Under the pieces are notes generated by a model. The model ran no database searches and had not been told where the DNA came from. It was given only the letters and a program-made list of their open reading frames with translations. From a virus: 64,000 bases of DNA. Within the stretch, counting starts at the first letter, position 1; each line of letters opens with the position of its first letter. The DNA lies in IMG/VR virus record IMGVR_UViG_3300027754_005988, positions 1 through 64,000 of that record. One strand, given 5' to 3'. The translations under genes were made by a program, and so were the position numbers. This document shows, piece after piece, positions 6,818-40,323 of this stretch.

Positions 6818-9800
6818 ATGAGCCAAGAAAAAACATCAGTAAGTAGTAAAAGAATAGAGGAATTTTTAGAGGGTTCGGACCCTCAAAAATATATCGTAGC
6901 AGTTGAAGCTTCATTCAATGAACCTACCGTAACTCTTGTTATTAACGACCCAGAATCTGGCAAATACCAAGAAGACCATAAATTTAAACCTTTCTTATGG
7001 TTTAAAGAAGATATTACAAGCGTAATATATAATGGTAATAGAAAAAAAATACTAGAAGCTGGTACTAAATATGGTGTTAGACTTAAAAAACTAAGAACAG
7101 CTGATAGTAATGGCTTTTCACCATCCCGTATGGAAAATGGTTATAAATATATCGCCATTTGTACCAAATCTTATAATAGCCTCATAAATTATTTCAAAGA
7201 AGGCGGTATTGATGTATTCAAAGAAGAATATAGAACCAATTTCGTAATGTTTAGTCCAGTTGAACAATTTATGATTCAAACTGGTAAACGACTATTTAAA
7301 GGTATTGATGATTATGATGGGCTGCACAGATTTCAATTTGACTTAGAAACAGAAGGATTATTCGCCAGTAAAAATGGTATCTTTCAAATAGGTGTTCGTG
7401 ACAATAGAGGTATGGATTATCTATTGGAAAATGATGGAGAGAATTATCAAGAAAAACGCGATTCTGAAAGAATCATGATTGAAAAATTCTTTAAGATAAT
7501 AGATATCGTTAAACCAGATATAATTGCTGGATATAACTCTGAAAACTTTGACTGGCCTTTCATATTTGAGCGTGCTGAGCGTTTATCCATACCAATCACA
7601 GAATTAGCCGTAACATTAAATAGACTGCATAAAATCAAACGAAAACAAGCTACAGTTAAGTTTGGTGGAGAAACAGAAACATACTTACAAACAAGTATGT
7701 ATGGTTATACCATTATTGATATTTCACATGCTGTTCGTAGAGCAATGGCGATAAACTCTGAGATTAAAGCTTGGGGATTAAAATATATAACACAATACTC
7801 TGAAATAGCTAAACCTAATAGGGTTTATGTTCCTGGTGATAAGATAAACTCTACATGGGCTGATAAGATTAATAAATACGCTTTTAATGATACAAATGGT
7901 GATTGGTATATGATTACTGATAATAAACCATTAAAAGAAGGTTATGAAATAAAAGGTGGTGATTATATTGTTCAAAGATACTTGTCAGACGATTTATGGG
8001 AAACAGAGCAAATTGATAATATATTTAATCAAGCAAGTTTCCTTATTGGTAAAATGTTACCAACAACATATCAACGCTCATCAACAATGGGTACCGCTGG
8101 TCAATGGAAACTAATAATGGCTGCATGGTCATATGAAAATGGTTTAGCAATTCCAGAAACTCAAAAGAAGCGTGATTTTACTGGTGGTTTATCTCGTTTG
8201 TTAGAAGTAGGTTATGCTAGAAATGTTGTTAAACTAGATTTTGCCGCACTTTATCCTAAAATTCAATTAACACATAAAATATTCCCAGATTTAGATATTA
8301 CTGGAATGATGGAAGGTACTCTTACTTATATAGTGGATACTCGTGACCATTATAAGTTCTTAACTGGTAAAGAGAAAAAAACATATAAAGATTTAGAAAA
8401 GAAATTAAAAGCAGAAAAAGATAATTTATCTAAAGAAGAAATTTCTCAATTAAAAAAAGAGATTGATGAACATAAAGCTTTAGCTAACTTATATGATAAA
8501 AAACAATTACCACTTAAGATTCTTGCTAACTCATGGTTTGGTTCGTACGGTGCACCTTATATCTTTAACTGGGGTGATACAGATTCAGCTGAAGAAACAA
8601 CTTGTAGAGGTAGACAATATTTAAGACTTATGGTTAGCCATTTCACCGAAAAACATGGATTTAGAGCATTGGTTGGAGATTCAGTTACTTATGACACACC
8701 AGTTTATATTAGATATTCTGATGGTACTTTGGACATTAAACCTATTTGTGATTTATTTAATGATGATTCGGAATTTATTGATTTAGATGGATTAAGAGAT
8801 TATGAAGCTAAACCATTTGAAGTTTTGACTGTAAATGGTTGGAAAAATATAAACTATGTTTATAGACATGGTACAGATAAAAAAATACATAGAATAACAA
8901 CTAAAGACAGATTAGTTAATGTAACTGAAGACCATTCTTTATTTCAAAATGGTATTAAAATAAAACCATCAACACTAAATAGAGGTAATTCTATAGATGT
9001 TTATAATAAATTAGATAAGTTTGATTCTTTATCTAGTTTATCTGAAGACCAAGCTTGGTTATACGGTTTCTTTTTAGGTGACGGTTCAGCTAATTGTTCC
9101 GATAGGAAATGTAAATACGTATCTAAAAAAACTGGCGAAACAAATATAAATAAAGGTAAAAGAAGTGATTGGAAGATTTCTAATTCTAGATTAGACGTTT
9201 TAGAAAAATTAAAACTAATACTAGAAAAAGAATTTGGGTTGGTTGGTATTATTAAGGACCATATGAAATCATCTGGTGTTTATAATTTAGTTGTCCATAA
9301 AACAGAATTTACTAATAGTTTTTGTAATGATTTCTATACATCATATAGAGAAAAGAAAGTACCTAGTTTTATACTAAATTCAAATGATACTATTAAAAAA
9401 GTTTTTTTAAATGGTGTTTGCGCTTCAGATGGTTATGGAGATGATTTAGACAATTGTTCTAGTATTGGAATGAAATCGCAAGTTGCAATGGCTGGTTTAT
9501 CTATATTATTTAACGAATTAAATATAGAATATAAGATAATCACTAGAAAAGATAAACAAAATTTTATAACGTTTAGTTTAAAAAATGACAATAGAAATAA
9601 TTCTAGTTTTACAAATAAAACAAAAAAGAAAACAAATGAAGTTTGGAAAAATGAAGTAATCATTAATAATGATAAAAACAATTTTGTTTATGATATATCA
9701 ACAGAGGACGGTACATTCATTGGTGGTATTGGATTGATTAACTTAAAGAATACTGATGGATTCAACTTTGCATTTCCAGATAATATTGATAATATAAAAT

Positions 9801-11593
9801 ACCTTGCCAAAGGTTCTCATTGGAAAACTAGTGGTGATGGTGGAAAAGAATTAGTTGGATTGGATGCAGTATTAGCCGAATTCAATGAAAACTATATGGA
9901 AGGTCGTATGGGGTTAGATATTGATGATATTTGTAATTCAACAATCAACTTTGCTCGTAAAAATTACGCTAATGATATTGGCGGTAAAATTAAACTTGTT
10001 GGTAACTCTGTTAAATCTAAAAAAATGTCAGTTTATATTGAAGAATTTTTAGGTAAAGCTATTCGTATGTTATTAGATGGTGATGGTTATTCATTTGTTA
10101 AGTATTATCATGAATATGTTGATAAGATTTATAATTATCAAATACCATTAGTTAAAATTGCATCTAAAGCTAAGGTTAAACTATCAATTTCTGATTATAA
10201 AAAGAAAGCAACACAAAAAAATAAAGCTGGTAACCCTATGCCTAAACAAGCACATATGGAATTGGCAATGAAAGATAACATAGATGTTACATTAGGAGAT
10301 GTTTTATATTATATCAATACAGGTAACGCTAAATCACATGGTGATTTAAAAACTATCGATAAGAATAAAATGTCAAAGAAAGAAAGAGATGCTTATTTTG
10401 CGTTAAATGGTTCTTATCCTCAGCCAATGAAAATTGTTGAACTTAATTGTAAACTAATTGAGCAAGATACCGTAGAACGTGATTTTGATTTATTGAAAGA
10501 ATTAAACATGTTAAGAGAAGCCATTTCAAAATTAGAAGAAGGTGAAAATGGTCGTGATGAAATGATAACAAGGATAAATGATATTAATAATCAACTATAC
10601 ACTGATGAATATAACGTTTCAAGATATTTGGATGCTTTTAATAAAAAAGTAAAACCATTGCTAGTTTGTTTTAATCCAGATATTCGTAGCAAAATATTAT
10701 TAGATATTGTTAAAACTAAAGATAAAGTAACAAAAAAAGTTACCGAGAAACTTAAAGATAGAAGCGTTTTTACACATTCAGAATGTGTGTTGGTATCTGG
10801 AATGCCTAATAAAGAAGCAGACCAAGATTTGTATGAAGATTTAATGAGAATGGAAGATAAAGAAATTAGATTCTGGGATAGCGTTAATATGGTTCCAAAT
10901 AATATGGAAGAAATAAAATGGGAAGAAATTAGACAAGATTGGAAACATAGAATTGAATTGGCTAAGATAGAAGGTATACAACAACAAAAAGATGCTTTAG
11001 ATGATATCTTTAAACATTTAGAACTTACTGATTTAAATTTAGTGTTATCAACTGGTAAATTACCTGTTGATGCATTTATTATCGCTGATGTTTCAGATGA
11101 TAATACTAGTTTAGTATCTAGAAAATGGGGTGAGATATTATGTCCTATTGGTGATATTTTTAAATATGAAAAACAGTCAATAGACAGAGATAATTATTAT
11201 AAATTAGTAGGTATAGAAAATACAGATAACCGATATGAAGAATACTTAAACTATTTAACAGAACAACAAGTATTAACTGGAGATACCATAACAATCGATT
11301 TTGAAGAACTATCTATAGATAAAAATACTTCTTTTGTTGAGCTGATTAAAGAAAATGCAAATCAAGCAATATCAATTAAATCTGGTGAACCAAAAAAGAA
11401 GAAAAAATTATCAGAAGGTGATGATGAAGATGATGAAATGGTAGAAGAAGAAGAAGATGAAAACGGAGATATGGTAAGGTCTGATGATGTTATTCAGTTA
11501 GATGATGATTTTGACGATACCTTTGGAGAAATACCAGATGATTATTCACCAATAGTAGAAATTAAAATAGAAGAAGATGAATGGGGATTCTAA
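6818..11593 (+). CDS. polB: Family B DNA polymerase with intein
   Basis: Exo motifs FDLETEG and IIAGYNSENFD; motif A KLDFAALYP; motif B KILANSWFGSYG; motif C VGD|TDG split by the intein; acidic C-terminal tail. Confidence 0.95.
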   Translation: MSQEKTSVSSKRIEEFLEGSDPQKYIVAVEASFNEPTVTLVINDPESGKYQEDHKFKPFLWFKEDITSVIYNGNRKKILEAGTKYGVRLKKLRTADSNGFSPSRMENGYKYIAICTKSYNSLINYFKEGGIDVFKEEYRTNFVMFSPVEQFMIQTGKRLFKGIDDYDGLHRFQFDLETEGLFASKNGIFQIGVRDNRGMDYLLENDGENYQEKRDSERIMIEKFFKIIDIVKPDIIAGYNSENFDWPFIFERAERLSIPITELAVTLNRLHKIKRKQATVKFGGETETYLQTSMYGYTIIDISHAVRRAMAINSEIKAWGLKYITQYSEIAKPNRVYVPGDKINSTWADKINKYAFNDTNGDWYMITDNKPLKEGYEIKGGDYIVQRYLSDDLWETEQIDNIFNQASFLIGKMLPTTYQRSSTMGTAGQWKLIMAAWSYENGLAIPETQKKRDFTGGLSRLLEVGYARNVVKLDFAALYPKIQLTHKIFPDLDITGMMEGTLTYIVDTRDHYKFLTGKEKKTYKDLEKKLKAEKDNLSKEEISQLKKEIDEHKALANLYDKKQLPLKILANSWFGSYGAPYIFNWGDTDSAEETTCRGRQYLRLMVSHFTEKHGFRALVGDSVTYDTPVYIRYSDGTLDIKPICDLFNDDSEFIDLDGLRDYEAKPFEVLTVNGWKNINYVYRHGTDKKIHRITTKDRLVNVTEDHSLFQNGIKIKPSTLNRGNSIDVYNKLDKFDSLSSLSEDQAWLYGFFLGDGSANCSDRKCKYVSKKTGETNINKGKRSDWKISNSRLDVLEKLKLILEKEFGLVGIIKDHMKSSGVYNLVVHKTEFTNSFCNDFYTSYREKKVPSFILNSNDTIKKVFLNGVCASDGYGDDLDNCSSIGMKSQVAMAGLSILFNELNIEYKIITRKDKQNFITFSLKNDNRNNSSFTNKTKKKTNEVWKNEVIINNDKNNFVYDISTEDGTFIGGIGLINLKNTDGFNFAFPDNIDNIKYLAKGSHWKTSGDGGKELVGLDAVLAEFNENYMEGRMGLDIDDICNSTINFARKNYANDIGGKIKLVGNSVKSKKMSVYIEEFLGKAIRMLLDGDGYSFVKYYHEYVDKIYNYQIPLVKIASKAKVKLSISDYKKKATQKNKAGNPMPKQAHMELAMKDNIDVTLGDVLYYINTGNAKSHGDLKTIDKNKMSKKERDAYFALNGSYPQPMKIVELNCKLIEQDTVERDFDLLKELNMLREAISKLEEGENGRDEMITRINDINNQLYTDEYNVSRYLDAFNKKVKPLLVCFNPDIRSKILLDIVKTKDKVTKKVTEKLKDRSVFTHSECVLVSGMPNKEADQDLYEDLMRMEDKEIRFWDSVNMVPNNMEEIKWEEIRQDWKHRIELAKIEGIQQQKDALDDIFKHLELTDLNLVLSTGKLPVDAFIIADVSDDNTSLVSRKWGEILCPIGDIFKYEKQSIDRDNYYKLVGIENTDNRYEEYLNYLTEQQVLTGDTITIDFEELSIDKNTSFVELIKENANQAISIKSGEPKKKKKLSEGDDEDDEMVEEEEDENGDMVRSDDVIQLDDDFDDTFGEIPDDYSPIVEIKIEEDEWGF
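8681..9751 (+). mobile_element. Intein (357 aa) with LAGLIDADG endonuclease, at the pol-c site
   Basis: Starts SVTYDTP, block B VTEDH, LAGLIDADG motifs YGFFLGDGS and FLNGVCASDG, ends LKN before T; removal restores GDTDG. Confidence 0.92.
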
Positions 11594-11633: not shown

Positions 11634-12776
11634 TTAATATACCCAGAATCCCATAGGTCTGTAAGTTAGTGATTTATTTAAGAATTCGGCCTCATTTGCA
11701 CCTCTTTCTAATTGTTTTGTCGAAGATAATCTTTCAAGTCTAGTATCAAGTCTTTCTAATACAGCTTTCTTTTCTTCATTACCTTCTTGTATTAACGTTT
11801 CATAATCCATAGTTCTTTCAGCTTCTGGAGGGCCAACAACACCACCAAATTTACCCCTTGTTCTACCAAGTGTTTTCTTAGCTTCAGCTATAAATAATTG
11901 TCTTATAAGTGTTTTTGTTGGTTCATTGAAATCAGCATAATCTAATTTAGATAATGGAACCTGATTTGGCATTTTTATAATATCTGGATTATCTTTTCTA
12001 CAAGCATCAACATCTGAATTTGTTGTATCATAATAAAAATACCATACTTGACAACCAGTCATATTTATAGAACTACCTACACCGCCAATACCTTGTCCAA
12101 ATGATAATTTAGACCCAGGAACACTCAATAAATGTAATAATTTAGTACCATTAGGACCAGCAGTTATCTTATATACTAATTCACTTCTAACAATTCTATT
12201 TTTAAGATTCATATCGGCAGCAGTTAATAAAATATCAAACGCTGGTGCAATATAATAACCCATTCTAGAAAATCCAGCACCACCAGTACCAGTACCACCA
12301 CCAGTTTGTGCAAATCCACCACCAAATCCGTAATCAATACCACCATAATTAGCCAATAAAGCTTGACTAGTAGCTGGTGGTGTTATCCATAAGACTTCAT
12401 TAACTTCACGACCAGCTGGTATTTGATAAACTTGTCTACCTGCTTCTAATTCAACGTAATCTTTTTTAAGTTCCCATGGTCCATTTGTTTGTAACCCTAC
12501 TTGTTTGGAATATGCATAAGTGTATTGTGTCATGAAATCAAAACTTCTAACACTCAATGCAAAAGCCATGTCTATATTATCAACATTATTACCTAATAAT
12601 GATTGCCATTGATGTTCAATCAACCATTCTTGTACATACTGTGCGTAGTCTTCTATACAAATTTCTAAAAGAGTACATAGCATTTCGTCCAATACTTCAA
12701 TTTGACGTATTGGTGCACCAACTGAATGTCTAAATTGGCGAAATAATTTTTCTTTTTCTTCATTACTAACAGCCAT
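11634..12776 (-). CDS. Neck protein (T4 gp13-like)
   Basis: The raw sequence places this ORF on the minus strand (CAT at 12774-12776; reverse complement reads MAVSNEEKEK). N-terminal FRHSVGAPIRQIEVLDEML..ICIEDY resembles gp13 LRRLGAPIINVE. Confidence 0.7.
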   Translation of the reverse strand: MAVSNEEKEKLFRQFRHSVGAPIRQIEVLDEMLCTLLEICIEDYAQYVQEWLIEHQWQSLLGNNVDNIDMAFALSVRSFDFMTQYTYAYSKQVGLQTNGPWELKKDYVELEAGRQVYQIPAGREVNEVLWITPPATSQALLANYGGIDYGFGGGFAQTGGGTGTGGAGFSRMGYYIAPAFDILLTAADMNLKNRIVRSELVYKITAGPNGTKLLHLLSVPGSKLSFGQGIGGVGSSINMTGCQVWYFYYDTTNSDVDACRKDNPDIIKMPNQVPLSKLDYADFNEPTKTLIRQLFIAEAKKTLGRTRGKFGGVVGPPEAERTMDYETLIQEGNEEKKAVLERLDTRLERLSSTKQLERGANEAEFLNKSLTYRPMGFWVY

Positions 12777-12857
12777 AAGTCTATTTATTTTATTATAAAT
12801 ATTTGTATAATTAGGTTTATATTAGTATTTTTACAAATATTTATAAAAACGGTTAAA

Positions 12858-14315
12858 ATGATTAAGAAAACAACAAATGAGTTTATTGCATTATGTTCAT
12901 TAAAACATAATAACAAATATGATTACTCACTTGTTGAATACAAAGGTGTTAGCCATAAAGTTAAAATAATTTGTGGTGAGCATGGTGAGTTTGAAAAAAC
13001 AGCAAGAGACCATACTAATGGACAAGGTTGTCCTAAATGCTCTAAAAAAGAAAAGTATTTAAATTATAAATTATCAAAAGAAGATTTAATTTATTCTTTT
13101 AATAAAAAACATGATAATAAATATGATTATTCTTTTGTTGATTATGTTAACCTAAAAACAAATATTAAAATTATATGTCCAATACATGGAGTTTTTGAAC
13201 AAAGACCAGATGTTCATTTAAACGGTGAAGGTTGTAATAAATGTTATTTAATAGCTAGAGGATTAAATGATAGGTTAACAACAAAACAATTTATTGAAAA
13301 AGCTATCGAATTACATGGTGATGTATATGATTACACACAAACGATATATACAAAAAACACAAATTACATAGATATTATATGTAAAAAACATGGTGTTTTC
13401 TCACAAATGGCTCAAGCACATTTACATGGTTCTAGTTGTCAAAAATGTTCATTAATAACGACTAAACCAGAAATTGATTTAGCAAATTGGCTTAATGATT
13501 TAAATATTTCTATTAAAACAAGTAATAGAACAATCTTAAATGGTAAAGAATTAGACATATACATACCATCTCATAATTTAGCTATTGAATACGATGGGCT
13601 ATACTGGCATTCTGAAAAACATATAGATAAAGATTATCATATAAATAAAACTATTGAATGTGAAAAACAAGGTATACATTTAATACATATATTTGAGGAT
13701 GAATGGTTAAACAAAAAAGATATTGTTAAATCTAGATTACAAAACATACTTGGACTAACACCTAATAAATTATATGCTAGAAAAACAGTAATAAAAGAAA
13801 TATCAAGCGAAAAATCTAAAGAATTTTTAGATAATAACCACATACAAGGTAATGTTAACTCTAAAATAAAATTAGGGTTATATTACAATGATGAATTGGT
13901 ATCATTAATGACATTAGGTCTATTGAGAAAATCAATGGGTGCAACTAATGTAGATGGTTCTTATGAACTACTTAGATTCTGTAATAAATTAAACACAAAT
14001 GTTATTGGTGGTGCTGGTAAGTTACTTAAACACTTCATTAAAACATATAAACCTATTGAAATTATTAGTTACGCTGATAAACGATGGAGTAAAGGTGATT
14101 TGTATGAGAAATTAGGTTTTAAGTTTATCCATGATTCAAAACCAAACTATTGGTATCTAATTGGTAACAATAGGGAATATAGATTCAAATACAGAAAAGA
14201 TATTCTAGTTAAAGAAGGATATGACCCTTCTAAAACCGAACATCAGATTATGTTAGGTAGAGGTATATATAGGATATATGATTGTGGTAACAAAAAATAT
14301 ACCCTATCTATTTAA
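12858..14315 (+). CDS. Free-standing endonuclease: three Zn-binding DUF723-like repeats, a Vsr/DUF559-type nuclease and a Mom-like GNAT domain
   Basis: Three KYDY..IIC..HG.F....H..G..C.KC repeats; KELDIYIP..AIEYDGLYWH; C-terminal NNHIQG..YELLRF..ISYADKRW..DLYEKLGF. Confidence 0.75.
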   Translation: MIKKTTNEFIALCSLKHNNKYDYSLVEYKGVSHKVKIICGEHGEFEKTARDHTNGQGCPKCSKKEKYLNYKLSKEDLIYSFNKKHDNKYDYSFVDYVNLKTNIKIICPIHGVFEQRPDVHLNGEGCNKCYLIARGLNDRLTTKQFIEKAIELHGDVYDYTQTIYTKNTNYIDIICKKHGVFSQMAQAHLHGSSCQKCSLITTKPEIDLANWLNDLNISIKTSNRTILNGKELDIYIPSHNLAIEYDGLYWHSEKHIDKDYHINKTIECEKQGIHLIHIFEDEWLNKKDIVKSRLQNILGLTPNKLYARKTVIKEISSEKSKEFLDNNHIQGNVNSKIKLGLYYNDELVSLMTLGLLRKSMGATNVDGSYELLRFCNKLNTNVIGGAGKLLKHFIKTYKPIEIISYADKRWSKGDLYEKLGFKFIHDSKPNYWYLIGNNREYRFKYRKDILVKEGYDPSKTEHQIMLGRGIYRIYDCGNKKYTLSI

Positions 14316-14566
14316 CCTAAAAATTTCTTTGTTAAATCAGCAGCTTCACGAATGGATTGAAAACTTATGTTAGGTACGAGTAATTGTTTACCAACTTTAA
14401 CAATAGGAACAGAATCTGATTCAGTTATTTTTTGTATTTTATCAAATTCTTTTTCATTTTCTTCTAAATTGACATTCACATCAATAAATTCAATTCCTTC
14501 ATTAGTTAGAATTTCTTTTAATTCTGAACAATAAGGACAATCAGGTATACTATATATCTTAACCAT
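14312..14566 (-). CDS. Glutaredoxin (NrdH/Grx-like)
   Basis: CPYC active site and SVP cis-Pro loop; the likely start is the second Met (14566), 1 nt after the helicase stop. Confidence 0.9.
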   Translation of the reverse strand: MVKIYSIPDCPYCSELKEILTNEGIEFIDVNVNLEENEKEFDKIQKITESDSVPIVKVGKQLLVPNISFQSIREAADLTKKFLG

Positions 14567-14567
14567 T

Positions 14568-17519
14568 TTAATCATTATTTATATTATCTATCATTTTGAT
14601 AGTTATTTCTTCTTCTGTTAATTTATTATCACCCATAATGGTGTTAATTATATCTTTTTTGTTATTTAACATATTCCACATTCTTGTTGATATAGTATCT
14701 ACAAATAATTGATAATATACGTTTACATCATTCTTCTGCCCAATCCTAAACGACCTATCTTCTGCCTGCTCATTTGAGCCAGGAACCCAATCAAATGAAT
14801 TAAAAATAACAACCGTAGCTTCAGTTAATGTTATACCAACACCTGCCGATTTTATGTTACCAATAAATACTTTAATCTTTGGATTATTTTGAAACGAATC
14901 CACAGATTTCTGCTTAGCATTCATAGTCATTGGGCCATTATGTTTTACAGCCAATTTACCAAAATGCTCACTTAAAGCCTCTAATTCTTCAGTAAACGAT
15001 GTGAAAACAATTACTTTCCTACCCATTTCAATAGCATTCTCAACCATTTCTATAGTATTAGGAATAGCCGCCATAGCTATGAACTTTCTTAATAATATCA
15101 ATTCAACCAAATCCTTTTGAGATTCAAGCGATTTCTTACCCTCAGCCTTTCTTTTCTCCATGTAATCATCCCAAAGTTGGTCATACATCTTCCAACCCTT
15201 AAGGTCTAACCTATGATACATTGGCGTAACTACTTTATCTGGCATATCTAATACATCTGTCTTAAGCCTCCTTAAAATAATGTTTTTTGTTTTTGCTGCT
15301 AACTCCTCTAAATTACTAGCACCATCAGTTAACCATATCTGCTTTCTTTGCCCGTTTTTAAGCGTTCTCATGAACTGTTTACCATCACAATACCTAACAG
15401 CATAATGCTTCCAATTATCTGCAATAGGTGACTTAATAATCTTTAATAAATTAAAGAAATCCATAGGCCTATTTGCAACTGGTGTTCCAGTAAGTAACCA
15501 TACTTTAGGTATGTTATGTTTAACACTTAATTCAACCATAATCTTACCACGAATACTTTCATGATTTTTAAGATAATGAGCCTCATCAACAATTGCTAAA
15601 TCAAAATTACAATTAGCCAAATCCCTAAATAAAACCTGTTGCACTTCACCCTCTTTTCTCTTCTTATTATCTGGTAATGTATGAAAGTTTTTAAGAATGT
15701 CAAAATTTATTATCGTAAACTTAGCCTTTTTAAAATTCTTACCATCAATTATTGCAGTATCATCACAAAAAACATTTATCTCACGTTCCCAATTTATCTT
15801 TGTTGATGAAGGACATACAACCAATATGTTTTTAGCATCACTTTCTAATGCAGCTATTATTGATTGTGTCGTATTATGTGTTACTATTGCATGTTCAGTC
15901 ACATATAACTTATCTGGTGCATCAACAGCAATACAAACAGAATCACCTTGACCACAAGGTTCAATATTTTTAATATATCTACCTATTTTATATTTTGCTG
16001 GTATGTTGTATGAATCAGCTTTACGTTTAAGTCTAAACGGATTAAATTGTTCTGGCATTTTAATATTTAACCTATAAGCTTTTTTACAGATAACTTTAGT
16101 ACCATCTTCTTTTTTATAAGAACCTATCTTACTTTTCTTTCTAACGATACCACCCAAAGAATGTACAATCTCTGCAACATCATCAGCCAATTTTTCAGAT
16201 ACAGTACAATACTCAGTACCATTAAACTCACCATTACTTGATTTCATACAATGACCATCAGTATCCATAAGACCTTGTAATATCGCAAGTCTGTTTTCAA
16301 TACTAGAATATTTGTATATATCTGGAATAAATTTTGTATCTGAACGTGTGTGTTCTAATTTTAAATCTTTTATATCAGAACTATGATTATTGATATAAGC
16401 TTTTCTTTTATTACCATCAGTTTTATGTTCAGTTAATAAAATACCTTCAAATAATTCATCAAAATCATCTTTATGTAATTGGATGGTAATTGCTGAAGAC
16501 TTTGTAAAATGACCATCACCTAGAGATAAACCTAATAAATAAGGTTCAATAGGTAAAGTATCATTATTTTCAAACTCAATTGGTTTAACAATTGGTATTT
16601 GCCATTTAGAATCACCATTTTTTTGTTTATAATATGTTTTAAACTTGTAAGGTCTTTTTTCATTCCAACAAGTACCAATTTGTTCTAAAACCAAGTTTTC
16701 ATCTAACATTTGCTCAACACTAAGTGTTATATATCTATTTTCCCTATTTTTAGAATTTTCACCAGAATTATTTGACGATACACTCCATAAATGTTCTTTC
16801 CCAACCAAAATACTATACCCATCATTAAATGTGACTTCATATAAGTCTTTAACACCTTGTGGATATACACCTATAATATTACACGCTTTACCATTTGAAC
16901 CAATAATTTGGTCACCAACTTTTAAATTACCAATTTTACGTCTACCATTTGGTGTAAATACTTGATTACTAGTTACCTCTAATTTACCCAAACCCATGTC
17001 GTCAGCTAATATACAACCATTTCTAGACAGTAGGAATTTAACACCTTCTTCTTGGTGGTTATAAAGTTTTTTATTTTGTTTAGCTAGGGTATTGTTATAT
17101 GGTGTAAAATCTACATCTATATTTATTTCTTCGAAGTATGGGTCATCGGTTACTTGTGTTTTTGGTAACCAGTACATTTTAGATTCTTTTTGGTTTCTAT
17201 TTAGTTTACCGTATATGTGATATGTTTTATCAGTTTCCGCTAGGATAAATTCGATAAGAATTCTTTGTGGTACGAATGATAATCCGTCTTGTTTTTGTAG
17301 TTCTAGGCCTAGGTATTCGGTTATACCGATAACACGATTGATATGTTGTGGTTCTCTATCGTGGTTATCTATTATATATTTGGACTGATTTTCGGTCAGT
17401 ATTAATTTTTTAGTTTTTAGATATTCATTCTTAAGTTTTATTAGATATGGGTTAATACCGTTATATTTTTCTAATAATGAAAGAGCTGAATGGCCTTTTA
17501 AATCGTCAAGGTTTATCAA
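14568..17519 (-). CDS. SNF2/SMARCAL1-like SF2 helicase with intein
   Basis: TTG start; LADDMGLGK|T, IVDEAH, LLTGTP, VGITL and QAEDRSFRIGQ motifs. Confidence 0.92.
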   Translation of the reverse strand: MINLDDLKGHSALSLLEKYNGINPYLIKLKNEYLKTKKLILTENQSKYIIDNHDREPQHINRVIGITEYLGLELQKQDGLSFVPQRILIEFILAETDKTYHIYGKLNRNQKESKMYWLPKTQVTDDPYFEEINIDVDFTPYNNTLAKQNKKLYNHQEEGVKFLLSRNGCILADDMGLGKLEVTSNQVFTPNGRRKIGNLKVGDQIIGSNGKACNIIGVYPQGVKDLYEVTFNDGYSILVGKEHLWSVSSNNSGENSKNRENRYITLSVEQMLDENLVLEQIGTCWNEKRPYKFKTYYKQKNGDSKWQIPIVKPIEFENNDTLPIEPYLLGLSLGDGHFTKSSAITIQLHKDDFDELFEGILLTEHKTDGNKRKAYINNHSSDIKDLKLEHTRSDTKFIPDIYKYSSIENRLAILQGLMDTDGHCMKSSNGEFNGTEYCTVSEKLADDVAEIVHSLGGIVRKKSKIGSYKKEDGTKVICKKAYRLNIKMPEQFNPFRLKRKADSYNIPAKYKIGRYIKNIEPCGQGDSVCIAVDAPDKLYVTEHAIVTHNTTQSIIAALESDAKNILVVCPSSTKINWEREINVFCDDTAIIDGKNFKKAKFTIINFDILKNFHTLPDNKKRKEGEVQQVLFRDLANCNFDLAIVDEAHYLKNHESIRGKIMVELSVKHNIPKVWLLTGTPVANRPMDFFNLLKIIKSPIADNWKHYAVRYCDGKQFMRTLKNGQRKQIWLTDGASNLEELAAKTKNIILRRLKTDVLDMPDKVVTPMYHRLDLKGWKMYDQLWDDYMEKRKAEGKKSLESQKDLVELILLRKFIAMAAIPNTIEMVENAIEMGRKVIVFTSFTEELEALSEHFGKLAVKHNGPMTMNAKQKSVDSFQNNPKIKVFIGNIKSAGVGITLTEATVVIFNSFDWVPGSNEQAEDRSFRIGQKNDVNVYYQLFVDTISTRMWNMLNNKKDIINTIMGDNKLTEEEITIKMIDNINND
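15873..16982 (-). mobile_element. Class 3-type intein (370 aa) with LAGLIDADG endonuclease, in Walker A
   Basis: Starts LEVTSNQ; block B EHLW, block F SVCIAV, block G VTHN before T; LAGLIDADG motifs LLGLSLGDG and LQGLMDTDG; removal restores GLGKT. Confidence 0.88.
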
Positions 17520-38225: not shown

Positions 38226-38244
38226 TAAATTACAAAATTAACTT

Positions 38245-38270
38245 AAAACCCCCAACATTGGGGGTTTTTT
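38245..38270 (+). terminator. Intrinsic terminator
   Basis: AAAACCCCCA-ACAT-TGGGGGTTTTTT after the sheath gene. Confidence 0.85.
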
Positions 38271-38304
38271 GTTTTTTGTAATATTTATATATAAACAAAT
38301 GATT

Positions 38305-38709
38305 ATGAAAAAAATTATAATAACATCATCTCAATATAATAAAATATTATTACATGAACAACATGCTCGTTTATCAAATAATATATTAAATGAAAATGTT
38401 AATGAAATACTTATGGGGTTTTCTAAATTAATAAAAATACCACTTACTGGTTTAAATAAAATAAAAAGTGAGTCTGATTTAAAAAATAAAGATGTAATAT
38501 TAAAAATAAAAAATACACTAGAAGATAAAAATAAATTAAAAGATTTAGTTAAATTATTATCTGATAAAAGTGGAAATGAAGAAATTAAAATTAAGTTAGC
38601 AAATAATGCTCAAACTATAATTGATGATTATAATTATTTAGCAACAAAAAATGGTTTAAAAGATATGTTAGGGTTAGATGCTTTAACTAATCTTAAGGAA
38701 TTAGTTTAA
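38305..38709 (+). CDS. Hypothetical protein (MKKIIIT.. N-terminus)
   Basis: Start reassigned to 38305, because the track start at 38269 lies in the terminator T-tail and upstream of TATTTATA at 38282. Confidence 0.6.
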   Translation: MKKIIITSSQYNKILLHEQHARLSNNILNENVNEILMGFSKLIKIPLTGLNKIKSESDLKNKDVILKIKNTLEDKNKLKDLVKLLSDKSGNEEIKIKLANNAQTIIDDYNYLATKNGLKDMLGLDALTNLKELV

Positions 38710-40243
38710 TATATTTTATAGTACCGCAATCATATATTCTATATATACCCCTATCTAACATAATCTGATGTTCAGTTTTAGAATGGTCATATCCTTCTTT
38801 AACTAAAACATCTTTTCTATACTTATACCTATTTTCTCTTTTTATGTTATTTATATAAAAGTAATTAGGTTTGGTATTGTTATGTTTTTTAAATCCTAAT
38901 TTTTCATATAAATTACCTAGACTCCATCGTCTATCAGCATAACTAATTATTTCTTTAGGTTTATAGTCTTTAATAAAATTTTTTAATAATTTATCAGCAC
39001 CACCAATAACAGTAGTATTTAGTTTATTACAAAATCTAATTAACTCATACGAATCTTCTTTATGGTTTAACCCTAATGATTTCCTTAGACCACCAAACGT
39101 CATTAAACTAACCAATTCAGAACCATAATATAATCCTAATCTAATTGTTGAATTAACATTTCCTTGAATATGATTATTATCTAAAAATAATTTTGAATTT
39201 TTAGAAGATACTTCTTTAATTACACACTTTCTACCAAATATTTTATTTGAAGTTACACCTAAAATATTGCTTAATCTTGATTTAACAATATCTTTTTTAG
39301 TTAACCATTCATCTTCAAAAATGTGTATTAGTTGTATTCCTAATTTTTCACATTCATTTGTTTTATTTAAATGATATTTATCATCTTTATAAATTTCAGA
39401 ATGCCAATATAATCCATTATACTCAATAGCTAAATTATGTGATGGTAGGTATATATCTAATTCTTTACCATTAAGTATTTTTCTATTACTTTTAATAGTT
39501 ATAGTATTTAATGAATTAATAAACTCAATTATTTCATTTTCTGGATAACTTATATTGTTTTTTATATCAACACAGGTTTTACAAATTGGTATTTCATTTT
39601 TAAACCTATAGTTTAATTCATTATTGTTAAATTCACTTAATTCATTACATGTATTACATTTAACAGTATAAAATCCATTCTCATTATTTAATATATTTAT
39701 TTTAACATATTTTTCTTTATTTTCAATTCTAATTTTGCTAGATTTAGATTGTGCTGGATATTCGGTATTATATTTTTTAATTGAACCTTCTTTAAAGATA
39801 GCTTTAACTCTATCCAATTTCATAACATTATCAACACCATACCTAGCTATATTGGTTTTTATAGTCTTTAATTTAACTTCTTCCGAAAAAAATGGTGTAG
39901 CACCACCATATATGGTTTTATTTGTTTCTTTTACTTTTTCAATATGGTTATTATTTTTATTGGTACATTTTAATGAACAATATTTACCATAACCATTATT
40001 TAATGATTTACCAAATTTCAATAACTTATCACATTCTAAACATTTAGGTTGTATTGTTTCATTATTTATAAAAAACCATATTTTTTCTTTAAATGAATAG
40101 TTAGATAATGAATATTTTTCAGAATATTTAATAACTTCATTGAATATATCTATAAATTTATTTTTTAATTTATCTTCACAGGTTTTCCAACCAGATTTAT
40201 TATTATTTAAAAAAAAATCTTTATATTTTATATTATTTTCCAT
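38693..40243 (-). CDS. Free-standing endonuclease: Zn-ribbon/TN..RYG repeats, a Vsr/DUF559-type nuclease and a Mom-like GNAT domain
   Basis: Minus strand checked against the raw sequence; C-terminal ~270 aa closely paralogous to 12858-14315; different N-terminus. Confidence 0.75.
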   Translation of the reverse strand: MENNIKYKDFFLNNNKSGWKTCEDKLKNKFIDIFNEVIKYSEKYSLSNYSFKEKIWFFINNETIQPKCLECDKLLKFGKSLNNGYGKYCSLKCTNKNNNHIEKVKETNKTIYGGATPFFSEEVKLKTIKTNIARYGVDNVMKLDRVKAIFKEGSIKKYNTEYPAQSKSSKIRIENKEKYVKINILNNENGFYTVKCNTCNELSEFNNNELNYRFKNEIPICKTCVDIKNNISYPENEIIEFINSLNTITIKSNRKILNGKELDIYLPSHNLAIEYNGLYWHSEIYKDDKYHLNKTNECEKLGIQLIHIFEDEWLTKKDIVKSRLSNILGVTSNKIFGRKCVIKEVSSKNSKLFLDNNHIQGNVNSTIRLGLYYGSELVSLMTFGGLRKSLGLNHKEDSYELIRFCNKLNTTVIGGADKLLKNFIKDYKPKEIISYADRRWSLGNLYEKLGFKKHNNTKPNYFYINNIKRENRYKYRKDVLVKEGYDHSKTEHQIMLDRGIYRIYDCGTIKYIKLIP

Positions 40244-40323
40244 TTATAGATATTTATTAACAAAGATACTAATATTTATCTGTAAATAAAATAAAAATAA
40301 CACAAAATTAAAAAAATATCACA

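What the first reader, a model, noticed from the sequence alone, without database searches (positions are those of the whole stretch)
12858..14315. Nuclease fused to a Mu Mom-like GNAT domain: possible single-chain cut-and-modify element
Seen: after a Vsr/DUF559-type nuclease core (E..ELDIY..EYDG.YWH), the last ~180 aa (from about 13773) read VIKEIS..SKEFLDNNHIQG..KLGLYYNDELVSLMTLG..YELLRF..KLLKHF..ISYADKRW..GDLYEKLGFKFI. Known, from memory of the sequence: Mu Mom, a GNAT-fold adenine-modifying anti-restriction enzyme, reads RVETIS..IIQTKHYS..HLGVFSGRDLVGVLQWG..YMELNRM..QSFADERCG..GVVYQASNFDFI. The His, Arg, Asp and Tyr implicated in Mom activity all have counterparts here. Inferred: these so-called homing endonucleases may modify DNA as well as cut it, acting as selfish restriction-modification units that protect the carrier phage and attack co-infecting phage or host DNA.
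Basis: partly seen in the sequence, partly recalled or inferred. Interest (0 to 1): 0.82.

Follow-up and report, generated by a model that had tools for sequence, protein, structure and literature searches.

The report
Hef-type homing endonuclease with Mom-like domain
This is an intact copy of a very common selfish phage gene (a Hef-type homing endonuclease) whose tail domain really is related to phage Mu's DNA-modifying enzyme Mom; the fusion and the cut-and-protect idea are already in print, but nobody has tested what the Mom-like part does.

Summary
ORF 12858-14315 (+) encodes 485 aa in three parts:
- Three CHCC zinc-ribbon repeats.
- A Vsr-like "EDxHD" nuclease. Its nearest solved structure is the I-Bth0305I catalytic domain, 3R3P.
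- A C-terminal GNAT domain. It passes Pfam's Mom model (28.6 bits against a cut-off of 27.1). Its AlphaFold model (pLDDT 91.8) has Mu Mom (8BV8) as top Foldseek match.

The gene is mobile. About 70 of 80 related phage contigs have the two flanking genes about 40 bp apart; only three carry this gene there. Two paralogs lie in the same phage record.

Mom's His58, Arg111, Asp149, Arg151 and Tyr159 all have counterparts. The essential Ser124 is probably matched by Gly, and by Asp in both paralogs.

Iyer et al. 2021 (Viruses 13:63) already described jumbo-phage Mom domains fused to REase-fold nucleases as predicted cut-and-protect units. The family is huge: more than 17,000 clusters at 50% identity. 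This scan has noted the same fusion before on other DNA (161 notes, at least 113 genomes).

Verdict: an ordinary new member of a known kind. The biochemical question stays open.

The parts
12858..14315 (+). Whole gene: 485-aa Hef-type free-standing homing endonuclease (stop codon included)
   Evidence: ORF list. Full-length match to phrog_559 (E 7e-136) and phrog_3339 (E 1e-113). 159 phage records cover at least 80% of it; the listed ones are mostly annotated 'Hef-like homing endonuclease', 'homing endonuclease' or hypothetical.
12858..13454 (+). Three ~66-aa repeats (res 1-66, 67-133, 134-199), each with a C-x2-H...C-x2-C zinc-ribbon motif (12972-13040, 13176-13244, 13380-13448); presumed DNA-reading array
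   Evidence: Pfam DUF4379 'treble clef zinc finger' E 1.2e-6 and DUF723. Motif positions. Paralogs swap this part: DUF7487 in copy 2, four repeats in copy 3.
13455..13751 (+). Vsr-like 'EDxHD' nuclease domain (res 200-298); E231, D233, E244, H251, K264, E280/D281
   Evidence: Profile hit to 3R3P, E 3.3e-5. Foldseek 3r3p_B E 1.7e-4, TMt 0.79, 28% id. D233 95%, E244 90%, H251 90%, D281 97% in 140 sequences: 138 cluster representatives plus the two window copies.
13752..14312 (+). Mom-family GNAT domain (res 299-485). Pocket H328, R373, D407, R409, Y416; P-loop G384-x-A386; basic helical insertion ~res 438-470 (R439, R442, R446, K447)
   Evidence: Pfam Mom above cut-off. AF2 pLDDT 91.8. 8BV8 top Foldseek hit. 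hhalign to Mom family 81%. Conservation.
12777..12857 (.). 81-bp divergent spacer between the endonuclease start and the start of the 380-aa virion gene; one edge of the insertion
   Evidence: Compared with empty sites of related contigs, which have a 38-bp grx-to-p380 spacer in L081.
14312..14575 (-). Glutaredoxin/thioredoxin-like gene. Its stop overlaps the endonuclease stop tail-to-tail; the other edge of the insertion
   Evidence: ORF list. phrog_22 thioredoxin domain E 2.8e-12. Adjacent to p380 in ~70 of 80 related contigs.
11634..12776 (-). Conserved 380-aa virion gene flanking the insertion (weak head-tail adaptor match)
   Evidence: 75-95% identical in 80 viral contigs. phrog_211 E 4e-6.
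38693..40243 (-). Paralog 2 (516 aa). Same nuclease + Mom-like core (~70-72% id) behind a different N-terminal module (DUF7487); lies between the tail sheath and tail tube genes
   Evidence: tblastn, ORF, Pfam, insertion hot spot.

Best explanation
This is an intact, mobile, free-standing homing-endonuclease gene of the Hef type.

Proposed working:
- The three zinc-ribbon repeats read a long DNA target in relatives that lack the gene.
- The Vsr-like EDxHD nuclease cuts that target.
- Recombinational repair from a gene-carrying genome copies the gene into the grx/p380 spacer.
- The C-terminal Mom-family GNAT domain is modelled as one rigid unit with the nuclease. Most likely it engages the same DNA through its conserved basic helical insertion.
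- It then takes a base into a conserved His-Arg-Asp-Tyr pocket and transfers an acyl or aminoacyl group to it. The effect would be that the carrier's own target copy is protected (cut-or-protect, like a single-chain R-M enzyme).
- Because the domain keeps the classical GNAT G-x-A phosphate-binding loop that Mu Mom lacks, the donor may be an acyl-CoA rather than Gly-tRNA.

Shown here: the three domain identities, mobility at a fixed site, purifying selection, and conservation of the pocket.

Inferred: cleavage, the target, any base modification, the donor, and the protective role.

The confidence given is for the whole statement. The identity alone I put near 0.9, and the catalytic DNA-modifying step near 0.5.
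For: Domain identities.

Mobility: in ~70 of 80 related contigs grx and p380 are ~40 bp apart. Only L083-L085 carry the gene at that spot. The closest relative by p380 (L081, 95%) is empty. Paralog 2 sits in a sheath/tube insertion hot spot. GC is 0.26 and 0.22 for the two copies against 0.30 for the window.

Rigid two-domain core: pLDDT 93.2, pTM 0.88 for res 195-485. 116 of 119 nuclease hits in fetched loci have the Mom-like domain directly behind; the other 3 are cut by locus ends.

GNAT pocket, in a sample chosen by the nuclease domain (120 sequences): H328 115, R373 115, G384 118, D407 116, R409 116, Y416 115.

GNAT pocket, in a sample chosen by the GNAT domain (140 sequences): H, R and Y 100%, G384 99%, A386 94%.

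Selection: omega about 0.24 for the GNAT part against 0.38 for the nuclease part (dS near 1, so rough).

Independent role: 19 of 140 sequences lack the nuclease catalytic set, and 15 of those keep GNAT H/R/D/Y. Seen by eye in the alignment for P0150, P0158, P0213, P0235 and P0248.

Literature: Mu Mom modifies N6 of adenine in dsDNA. R111, S124 and R151 are essential, and its helical insertion is essential and modelled on DNA (PMC13219725). Iyer et al. 2021 predict the same role for these fusions.
Against: - No activity is measured for any Hef-type GNAT domain in the papers I could search.
- The most likely equivalent of Mom S124 is Gly here and Asp in both paralogs. In the near clade it is D 57, S 47, G 5, N 5, which is the pattern of a helix N-cap rather than a fixed catalytic residue.
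- The R151 equivalent is Arg in only 54% of distant representatives.
- Y59 and the dimer residue W48 are not kept.
- Homology to Mom is remote: 17-21% identity. By VIA Z-score, Mom is only tied with ordinary GNATs.
- Free-standing homing endonucleases usually gain self-immunity from target polymorphism, so a protective modification is not required.
- Part of the conservation sample was chosen by GNAT similarity, which inflates those numbers.
Confidence: 0.5

Rival explanations
1. The Mom-like domain no longer transfers anything. It survives as a DNA-binding or base-flipping module that positions or gates the nuclease, and the gene is a plain homing endonuclease.
For: S124 and R151 equivalents vary within the family, and Y59 and W48 are lost. 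The domain is always attached to the nuclease in the loci sampled. No true stand-alone form was found. The conserved basic insertion (R439, R442, R446, K447) is what a DNA-binding role alone would need.
Against: The GNAT phosphate-binding loop G384-x-A386 (99% and 94%) and the pocket residues H328, R373 and Y416 are near-invariant; a pure DNA clamp would not need them. Members with a decayed nuclease motif keep them.
Confidence: 0.3
2. It is not a homing element but a phage weapon. A broad-acting nuclease attacks host or co-infecting DNA while genome-wide acylation of adenines protects the phage. This is the R-M framing of Iyer et al. 2021 and of the first reader.
For: Published prediction. 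Several paralogs per genome: 3 here, 5 in PA5oct.
Against: - Presence/absence at exact intergenic sites in otherwise syntenic relatives.
- Swappable arrays of DNA-reading modules point to long specific targets.
- Per Taylor et al. 2011, Hef-type homing endonucleases belong to the EDxHD family. That the prototype Hef homes and cuts near its own locus is from my memory of Sandegren et al. 2005, which is not held.
- Most close relatives of this phage lack this copy, so it cannot be their general protection.
Confidence: 0.1
3. The GNAT domain acts on something other than DNA: aminoacyl-tRNA (as in TacT/AtaT-type toxins), a protein, or the enzyme itself.
For: GNATs are chemically versatile, and Mom's own substrates could not be predicted from structure (PMC13219725 discussion). 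By Z-score, ordinary protein N-acetyltransferases tie with Mom.
Against: Sequence models pick Mom specifically. The nearest viral structures outside the family are stand-alone ~200-aa proteins, the first named one a Mom. A helical insertion sits at the same place as Mom's DNA-binding insertion. The domain is fused to DNA-binding and DNA-cutting domains.
Confidence: 0.07

Closest known systems
Hef (T-even phage U5) and 'Hef-like' free-standing homing endonucleases (F-LimIII/VII/VIII/X of Dickeya phage LIMEstone1; copies in PA5oct, AR9/PBS1, Campylobacter phages, Tenacibaculum phage PTm1)
   Same: Same full-length architecture and PHROG families. Free-standing, several copies per large phage genome, next to conserved replication or virion genes. 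The best isolate match is PTm1, 44.7% identity over 99% of the protein.
   Different: A new sequence from an uncultured phage, at most 45% identical to any isolate's copy. Neither target nor activity is known. The original Hef paper could not be read here, so I did not check whether U5 Hef itself has the Mom-like domain.
I-Bth0305I, prototype of the EDxHD (Vsr-like) homing endonuclease family, PDB 3R3P
   Same: Nuclease fold and catalytic E/D/H/D pattern. Taylor et al. 2011 already place Hef-type enzymes in this family.
   Different: I-Bth0305I is intron-encoded, has NUMOD/HTH DNA-binding parts at its N-terminus, and ends with the nuclease. It has no GNAT domain.
Phage Mu Mom (PDB 8BV8), a Gly-tRNA-dependent adenine-N6 modifying GNAT
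   Same: GNAT fold with a helical insertion between the last strands. Counterparts exist for H58, R111, D149, R151 and Y159. Pfam Mom model passed.
   Different: - 17-21% identity.
- Fused rather than stand-alone.
- No Ser at the likely S124 position.
- Y59 and the dimer residue W48 are not kept.
- It keeps a canonical G-x-A phosphate loop where the Mom family has P-R-N-x-E-S, so the donor may differ.
- Activity untested.
Single-chain restriction-modification enzymes (Type IIG/IIC such as MmeI or BcgI; from general knowledge)
   Same: One polypeptide with DNA recognition, cleavage and a base-modifying domain. This is the closest analogue for how it may work.
   Different: Those use SAM-dependent methyltransferase domains and PD-(D/E)xK or related nucleases, and they are host defence genes. 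Here the domain is a GNAT and the gene behaves as a mobile homing element. This is an analogy only, not homology.

Membership tests
Hef-type / EDxHD (Vsr-like) homing endonucleases | Vsr-like nuclease fold with conserved E, D, H, D catalytic residues | tested here: met
   3R3P by profile, E 3.3e-5, and by Foldseek, TMt 0.79. E231, D233, H251 and D281 are present and 90-97% conserved.
Hef-type / EDxHD (Vsr-like) homing endonucleases | Full-length similarity to annotated Hef-like proteins | tested here: met
   phrog_559 E 7e-136 and phrog_3339 E 1e-113. 159 phage records cover at least 80% of the protein.
Hef-type / EDxHD (Vsr-like) homing endonucleases | Mobile gene: sporadic presence at a fixed site in otherwise syntenic genomes | tested here: met
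   ~70 of 80 related contigs are empty at the site and 3 are filled. The boundaries are exact at the grx stop and the p380 upstream spacer.
Hef-type / EDxHD (Vsr-like) homing endonucleases | Site-specific cleavage near its own locus, and homing in mixed infection | not testable with these tools
   Needs enzyme assays or co-infection. A search for diagnostic target polymorphisms was underpowered.
Pfam PF25680 Mom family (Mom-like GNAT domains in the broad sense) | Score above the curated gathering threshold of the Mom model | tested here: met
   28.6 bits against 27.1 for the isolated domain. 45 of 47 homologs match at E<=0.01. Copy 3 scores 29.0 bits and copy 2 only 21.3.
Pfam PF25680 Mom family (Mom-like GNAT domains in the broad sense) | GNAT fold closest to Mom | tested here: met
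   Foldseek rank 1 is 8BV8, E 8.7e-8. VIA Z 13.6 with the longest alignment and highest identity, but tied on Z with other GNATs.
Pfam PF25680 Mom family (Mom-like GNAT domains in the broad sense) | Helical insertion between the last beta strands, at the place of Mom's essential HTH-like insertion (res ~175-209) | tested here: met
   The model has three short helices (domain res 144-169) between strands 133-143 and 173-186. hhalign anchors domain Y133-L136 to Mom residues 174-177, just before Mom's insertion. The match is in position only; homology of the insertion itself is not shown.
Mu Mom orthologues (stand-alone ~230-aa adenine carbamoylmethyl-forming enzymes) | Essential residues R111, R151, D149, plus H58 and Y159 | tested here: met
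   R373, R409, D407, H328 and Y416.
Mu Mom orthologues (stand-alone ~230-aa adenine carbamoylmethyl-forming enzymes) | Essential, family-invariant Ser124 | tested here: not met
   hhalign puts S124 on G387. The paralogs have Asp there. BLASTP offers T380 instead, but T380 lies before helix alpha3, whereas the Ser is described as lying in alpha3. S124 is invariant in 37 Mom homologs.
Mu Mom orthologues (stand-alone ~230-aa adenine carbamoylmethyl-forming enzymes) | Dimer residue W48 and stand-alone dimeric form | tested here: not met
   W48 aligns to E318. The domain is always fused in the loci sampled.
Mu Mom orthologues (stand-alone ~230-aa adenine carbamoylmethyl-forming enzymes) | Gly-tRNA(Gly)-dependent modification of adenine N6 in dsDNA | not testable with these tools
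   Biochemical assay needed. No tRNA genes in the window, which says nothing either way.

The most novel reading that the evidence does not exclude
The Mom-like domain of Hef-type homing endonucleases is an active, site-directed DNA base acyltransferase. It uses an acyl-CoA donor, since it keeps the GNAT G-x-A loop that Mu Mom has lost. It marks the carrier genome's own target so that the fused nuclease spares it. That would make this family of over 17,000 clusters a class of 'homing restriction-modification' enzymes with epigenetic self-immunity. The members with a decayed nuclease motif would then be orphan DNA acyltransferases.
Probability: 0.35. Interest if true: 0.7.

Novelty: new member of a known kind. 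Interest (0 to 1): 0.3.

Why it matters
As a gene it is ordinary: one more copy of one of the commonest selfish genes of large phages.

What remains open is general. A domain related to the only known DNA-aminoacylating enzyme sits at the end of many thousands of phage nucleases and looks constrained, yet databases label these proteins simply 'HNH' or 'homing endonuclease'.

If the domain is active, two things would follow:
- It would explain how free-standing homing endonucleases spare their own genome.
- It would reveal rare, site-specific acyl-adenine marks in phage DNA that bulk nucleoside analysis would miss.

The 2026 Mom mechanism paper supplies the assays needed to test this.

Tried and rejected
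- **Sequence searches of PDB:** searches with the single domain or its profile did not retrieve 8BV8, although 8BV8 is in the library. hhalign against the single Mom sequence was weak. Only the family-to-family comparison and the fold search linked them.
- **Homodimer prediction** of the nuclease+GNAT core: no verdict, so nothing can be said about dimerisation.
- **Stand-alone GNAT forms:** P0135 (196 aa) lies behind nuclease remnants beside a second truncated copy. P0161 comes from a 938-bp contig and itself begins inside the nuclease region, at query residue 276. Neither is a real stand-alone form.
It is not excluded.
- **Target-site polymorphisms** separating gene-carrying from empty genomes: a few scattered columns with no cluster, and only four carriers. 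Inconclusive.
- **'HNH endonuclease'** (the name of phrog_559): no HNH family appears among the Pfam hits. The nuclease is Vsr-like.
- **Papers not held:** Sandegren 2005, Iyer 2009 and Iyer 2013. Their content is cited only through papers that were read, or marked as recalled from memory.

Full report
**What is there.** Window 12858-14315 (+) is one uninterrupted 485-aa ORF. It matches two PHROG families over its full length: phrog_559, named 'HNH endonuclease' (E 7e-136), and phrog_3339, 'homing endonuclease' (E 1e-113). By tblastn it matches 1008 phage records, and 159 of these cover at least 80% of it. The listed ones are mostly annotated 'Hef-like homing endonuclease', 'homing endonuclease' or hypothetical; they include Tenacibaculum PTm1 (44.7% identity), Pseudomonas PA5oct (five places), Bacillus AR9/PBS1 and Yersinia phiR1-37.

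**Anatomy.**
- Residues 1-199 are three repeats of about 66 aa. Each has a C-x2-H...C-x2-C motif and hits the treble-clef zinc-finger families DUF4379 and DUF723.
Pfam sees MTES_1575, Vsr and DUF559 only below threshold.
- A profile of 47 homologs finds the I-Bth0305I catalytic domain (3R3P) at E 3.3e-5.
- An AF2 model of residues 195-485 (pLDDT 93.2, pTM 0.88) matches 3r3p_B at E 1.7e-4, target TM 0.79, 28% identity.
- Taylor et al. 2011 already placed Hef-type enzymes in this Vsr-like 'EDxHD' family.

**The Mom-like domain.**
- Scanned alone, residues 299-485 pass Pfam's Mom model: E 1.4e-6, 28.6 bits against a cut-off of 27.1.
- 45 of 47 homologous domains from viral contigs also hit Mom.
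- A family-to-family hhalign against 37 Mu-Mom homologs gives 81% probability, E 1.2e-5.
- The AF2 model of the domain (pLDDT 91.8) has the Mu Mom crystal structure 8BV8 as best Foldseek match (E 8.7e-8), ahead of ordinary GNATs at E 1e-5 or weaker.
- VIA-align gives Z 13.6, rmsd 2.5, 136 residues aligned and 21% identity. That is the longest alignment and highest identity among the closest-scoring rows, but on Z it is only tied with other GNATs.
- In BFVD, the first hits beyond Hef-like proteins are stand-alone proteins of about 200 aa, the first named one a Mom.

**Residue mapping to Mu Mom.** The functional residues come from Silva et al. 2026 and Karambelkar et al. 2020.

| Mu Mom residue | Counterpart here | Kept? 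|
|---|---|---|
| H58 | H328 | yes |
| R111 | R373 | yes |
| D149 | D407 | yes |
| R151 | R409 | yes |
| Y159 | Y416 | yes |
| Y59 | I329 | no |
| W48 (dimer residue) | E318 | no |
| S124 (essential) | G387 by hhalign; T380 by BLASTP | no Ser |

- Karambelkar et al. describe the Ser as lying in helix alpha3, and the model's alpha3 starts at domain residue 87. The G387 mapping is therefore the better one.
- Both paralogs have Asp at this position.
- In the near clade the position reads D 57, S 47, G 5, N 5. That is the residue set typical of a helix N-cap, so the missing Ser is only weak evidence of inactivity.
- The domain keeps a canonical GNAT G-x-A loop (G384 99%, A386 94%), where the Mom family has P-R-N-x-E-S. 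The acyl donor may therefore differ from Mom's Gly-tRNA. This last point is inference.

**Is the domain constrained?**
- In 140 sequences (138 representatives of 50%-identity clusters chosen by GNAT similarity, plus the two window copies), H328, R373 and Y416 are 100% conserved. D407 is 89% conserved. Position 387 is Ser in 79%, and R409 is Arg in 54%; 91% have a basic residue at 408 or 409.
- That sample favours intact GNATs. A second sample chosen by the nuclease domain (120 sequences) gives H 115, R 115, G384 118, D407 116, R409 116 and Y 115.
- Rough Nei-Gojobori estimates give omega about 0.24 for the GNAT part and 0.38 for the nuclease part. dS is about 1 and the pairs are not independent.
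- 19 of the 140 GNAT-selected sequences lack the nuclease catalytic set, and 15 of these keep the GNAT H/R/D/Y set. The decay of the nuclease motif is visible in the alignment.
- This points to a role for the GNAT domain beyond helping its own nuclease.

**Mobility.**
- The neighbouring 380-aa virion gene is 75-95% identical in 80 viral contigs.
- In about 70 of them the glutaredoxin-like gene ends about 40 bp before it. Only L083-L085 have a Hef-type gene in between. The closest relative by that gene (L081, 95%) is empty.
- The insertion begins right after the grx stop codon and ends upstream of a conserved AT-rich motif before p380.
- The phage record (126,969 bp) holds three copies.
- Copy 2 (38693-40243, minus strand) lies between the tail sheath and tail tube genes. 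Its nuclease-GNAT core is 70-72% identical, but its N-terminal module is a different one, DUF7487.
- That spacer is an insertion hot spot: of 66 related contigs, 11 have a short gap, 8 a Hef-type gene and 47 other inserts.
- Copy 3 (545 aa, four zinc repeats) lies beside ribonucleotide reductase and a baseplate wedge gene.
- The two window copies have lower GC (0.26 and 0.22) than the window (0.30).
- All of this fits free-standing homing endonuclease genes with swappable DNA-reading modules on a constant nuclease-GNAT core.

**What is known already.**
- Iyer et al. [quoted passage not shown] They predict that momylation protects phage DNA while the nuclease attacks other DNA, and they count five such enzymes in PA5oct.
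- I found no paper that links Mom-type domains to homing endonucleases experimentally.
- The 2026 Mom mechanism paper does not mention fusions.
- The family is very large: 17,324 cluster representatives match the domain at E<=1e-3, and at least 7,910 proteins match the full length.
- This scan has 161 earlier notes on the same fusion in at least 113 other genomes. Follow-up agents reached the same verdict, and I checked their main claims independently here.

**Verdict.**
- The identity is secure: a Hef-type, Vsr-like homing endonuclease with a Mom-family GNAT domain.
- My best reading of the mechanism is that the enzyme cuts a target in gene-less relatives, and that the GNAT domain engages and probably acylates a base in the same DNA to protect the carrier. 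I give the catalytic part roughly even odds.
- The main rival is a non-catalytic DNA-binding role. It is supported by the variable S124 and R151 equivalents and by the domain's constant attachment to the nuclease.
- The homodimer prediction gave no verdict.
- The gene is a new member of a known kind. The open question is biochemical and applies to the whole family, not to this window.

Noticed in passing
window 6818-11593 (+): The 1591-aa family-B DNA polymerase has its polymerase domain interrupted: Pfam DNA_pol_B matches only profile positions 43-200, ending at residue 610. The inserted stretch contains LAGLIDADG-like motifs (LYGFFLGDG). It is probably an intein with a homing endonuclease.
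   Followed up: partly
window 14568-17519 (-): In the SNF2-family helicase, the SNF2 domain match spans 654 residues for a 278-position profile, and a LAGLIDADG_3 domain lies inside it (res 410-471). This is a second probable intein, right next to the Hef-type gene.
   Followed up: partly
window 38226-40323, and loci L164-L243: The tail sheath / tail tube spacer is an insertion hot spot. Of 66 related contigs with both genes, 11 have a gap under 300 bp, 8 a Hef-type gene and 47 other inserts. The window also has an unassigned 146-aa ORF there (38269-38709) with no PHROG match.
   Followed up: partly
G000:C1:70496-72133 (-), locus L161:1997-3634: A third paralog (545 aa, four zinc repeats) lies outside the window, between a 456-aa ribonucleotide reductase large-subunit ORF that matches only the C-terminal part of the RNR profiles and a baseplate wedge gene.
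   Followed up: partly
proteins P0150, P0158, P0213, P0235, P0248 and others: About one in seven GNAT-selected cluster representatives has lost the nuclease catalytic residues but keeps the GNAT His/Arg/Asp/Tyr and G-x-A loop. These may be 'orphan' Mom-like domains on dead nucleases.
   Followed up: partly
proteins P0396, P0410, P0474 (800-821 aa): In the alignment of their last 300 residues, three long relatives with an intact nuclease motif show H->S, R->A/N and Y->F/L at the GNAT pocket positions. This is the reverse case (nuclease kept, GNAT pocket altered). Their extra length was not examined, so misalignment is possible.
   Followed up: no
L162:2000-3267: Two truncated Hef-type remnants lie tail-to-tail on one metagenome contig. 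These are decayed copies that gene callers report as a 196-aa 'Mom (weak)' protein.
   Followed up: partly
L081:5964-6000 and the same spot in L088, L093, L110, L128; window ~12777-12810: Gene-less relatives share a conserved AT-rich, partly palindromic motif (TTTTCTTATATTTATAAGAAAAG) in the 38-bp spacer before the 380-aa virion gene. It may be a late promoter or a terminator. The carrier keeps only part of it (ATATTTATAA).
   Followed up: no
loci L116, L119, L122, L124, L126, L127, L132: These relatives have a different insertion of ~1.2-1.4 kb between the glutaredoxin-like gene and the 380-aa gene. It has no similarity to the Hef-type nuclease or the Mom-like domain, so the same spacer is used by another element.
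   Followed up: no
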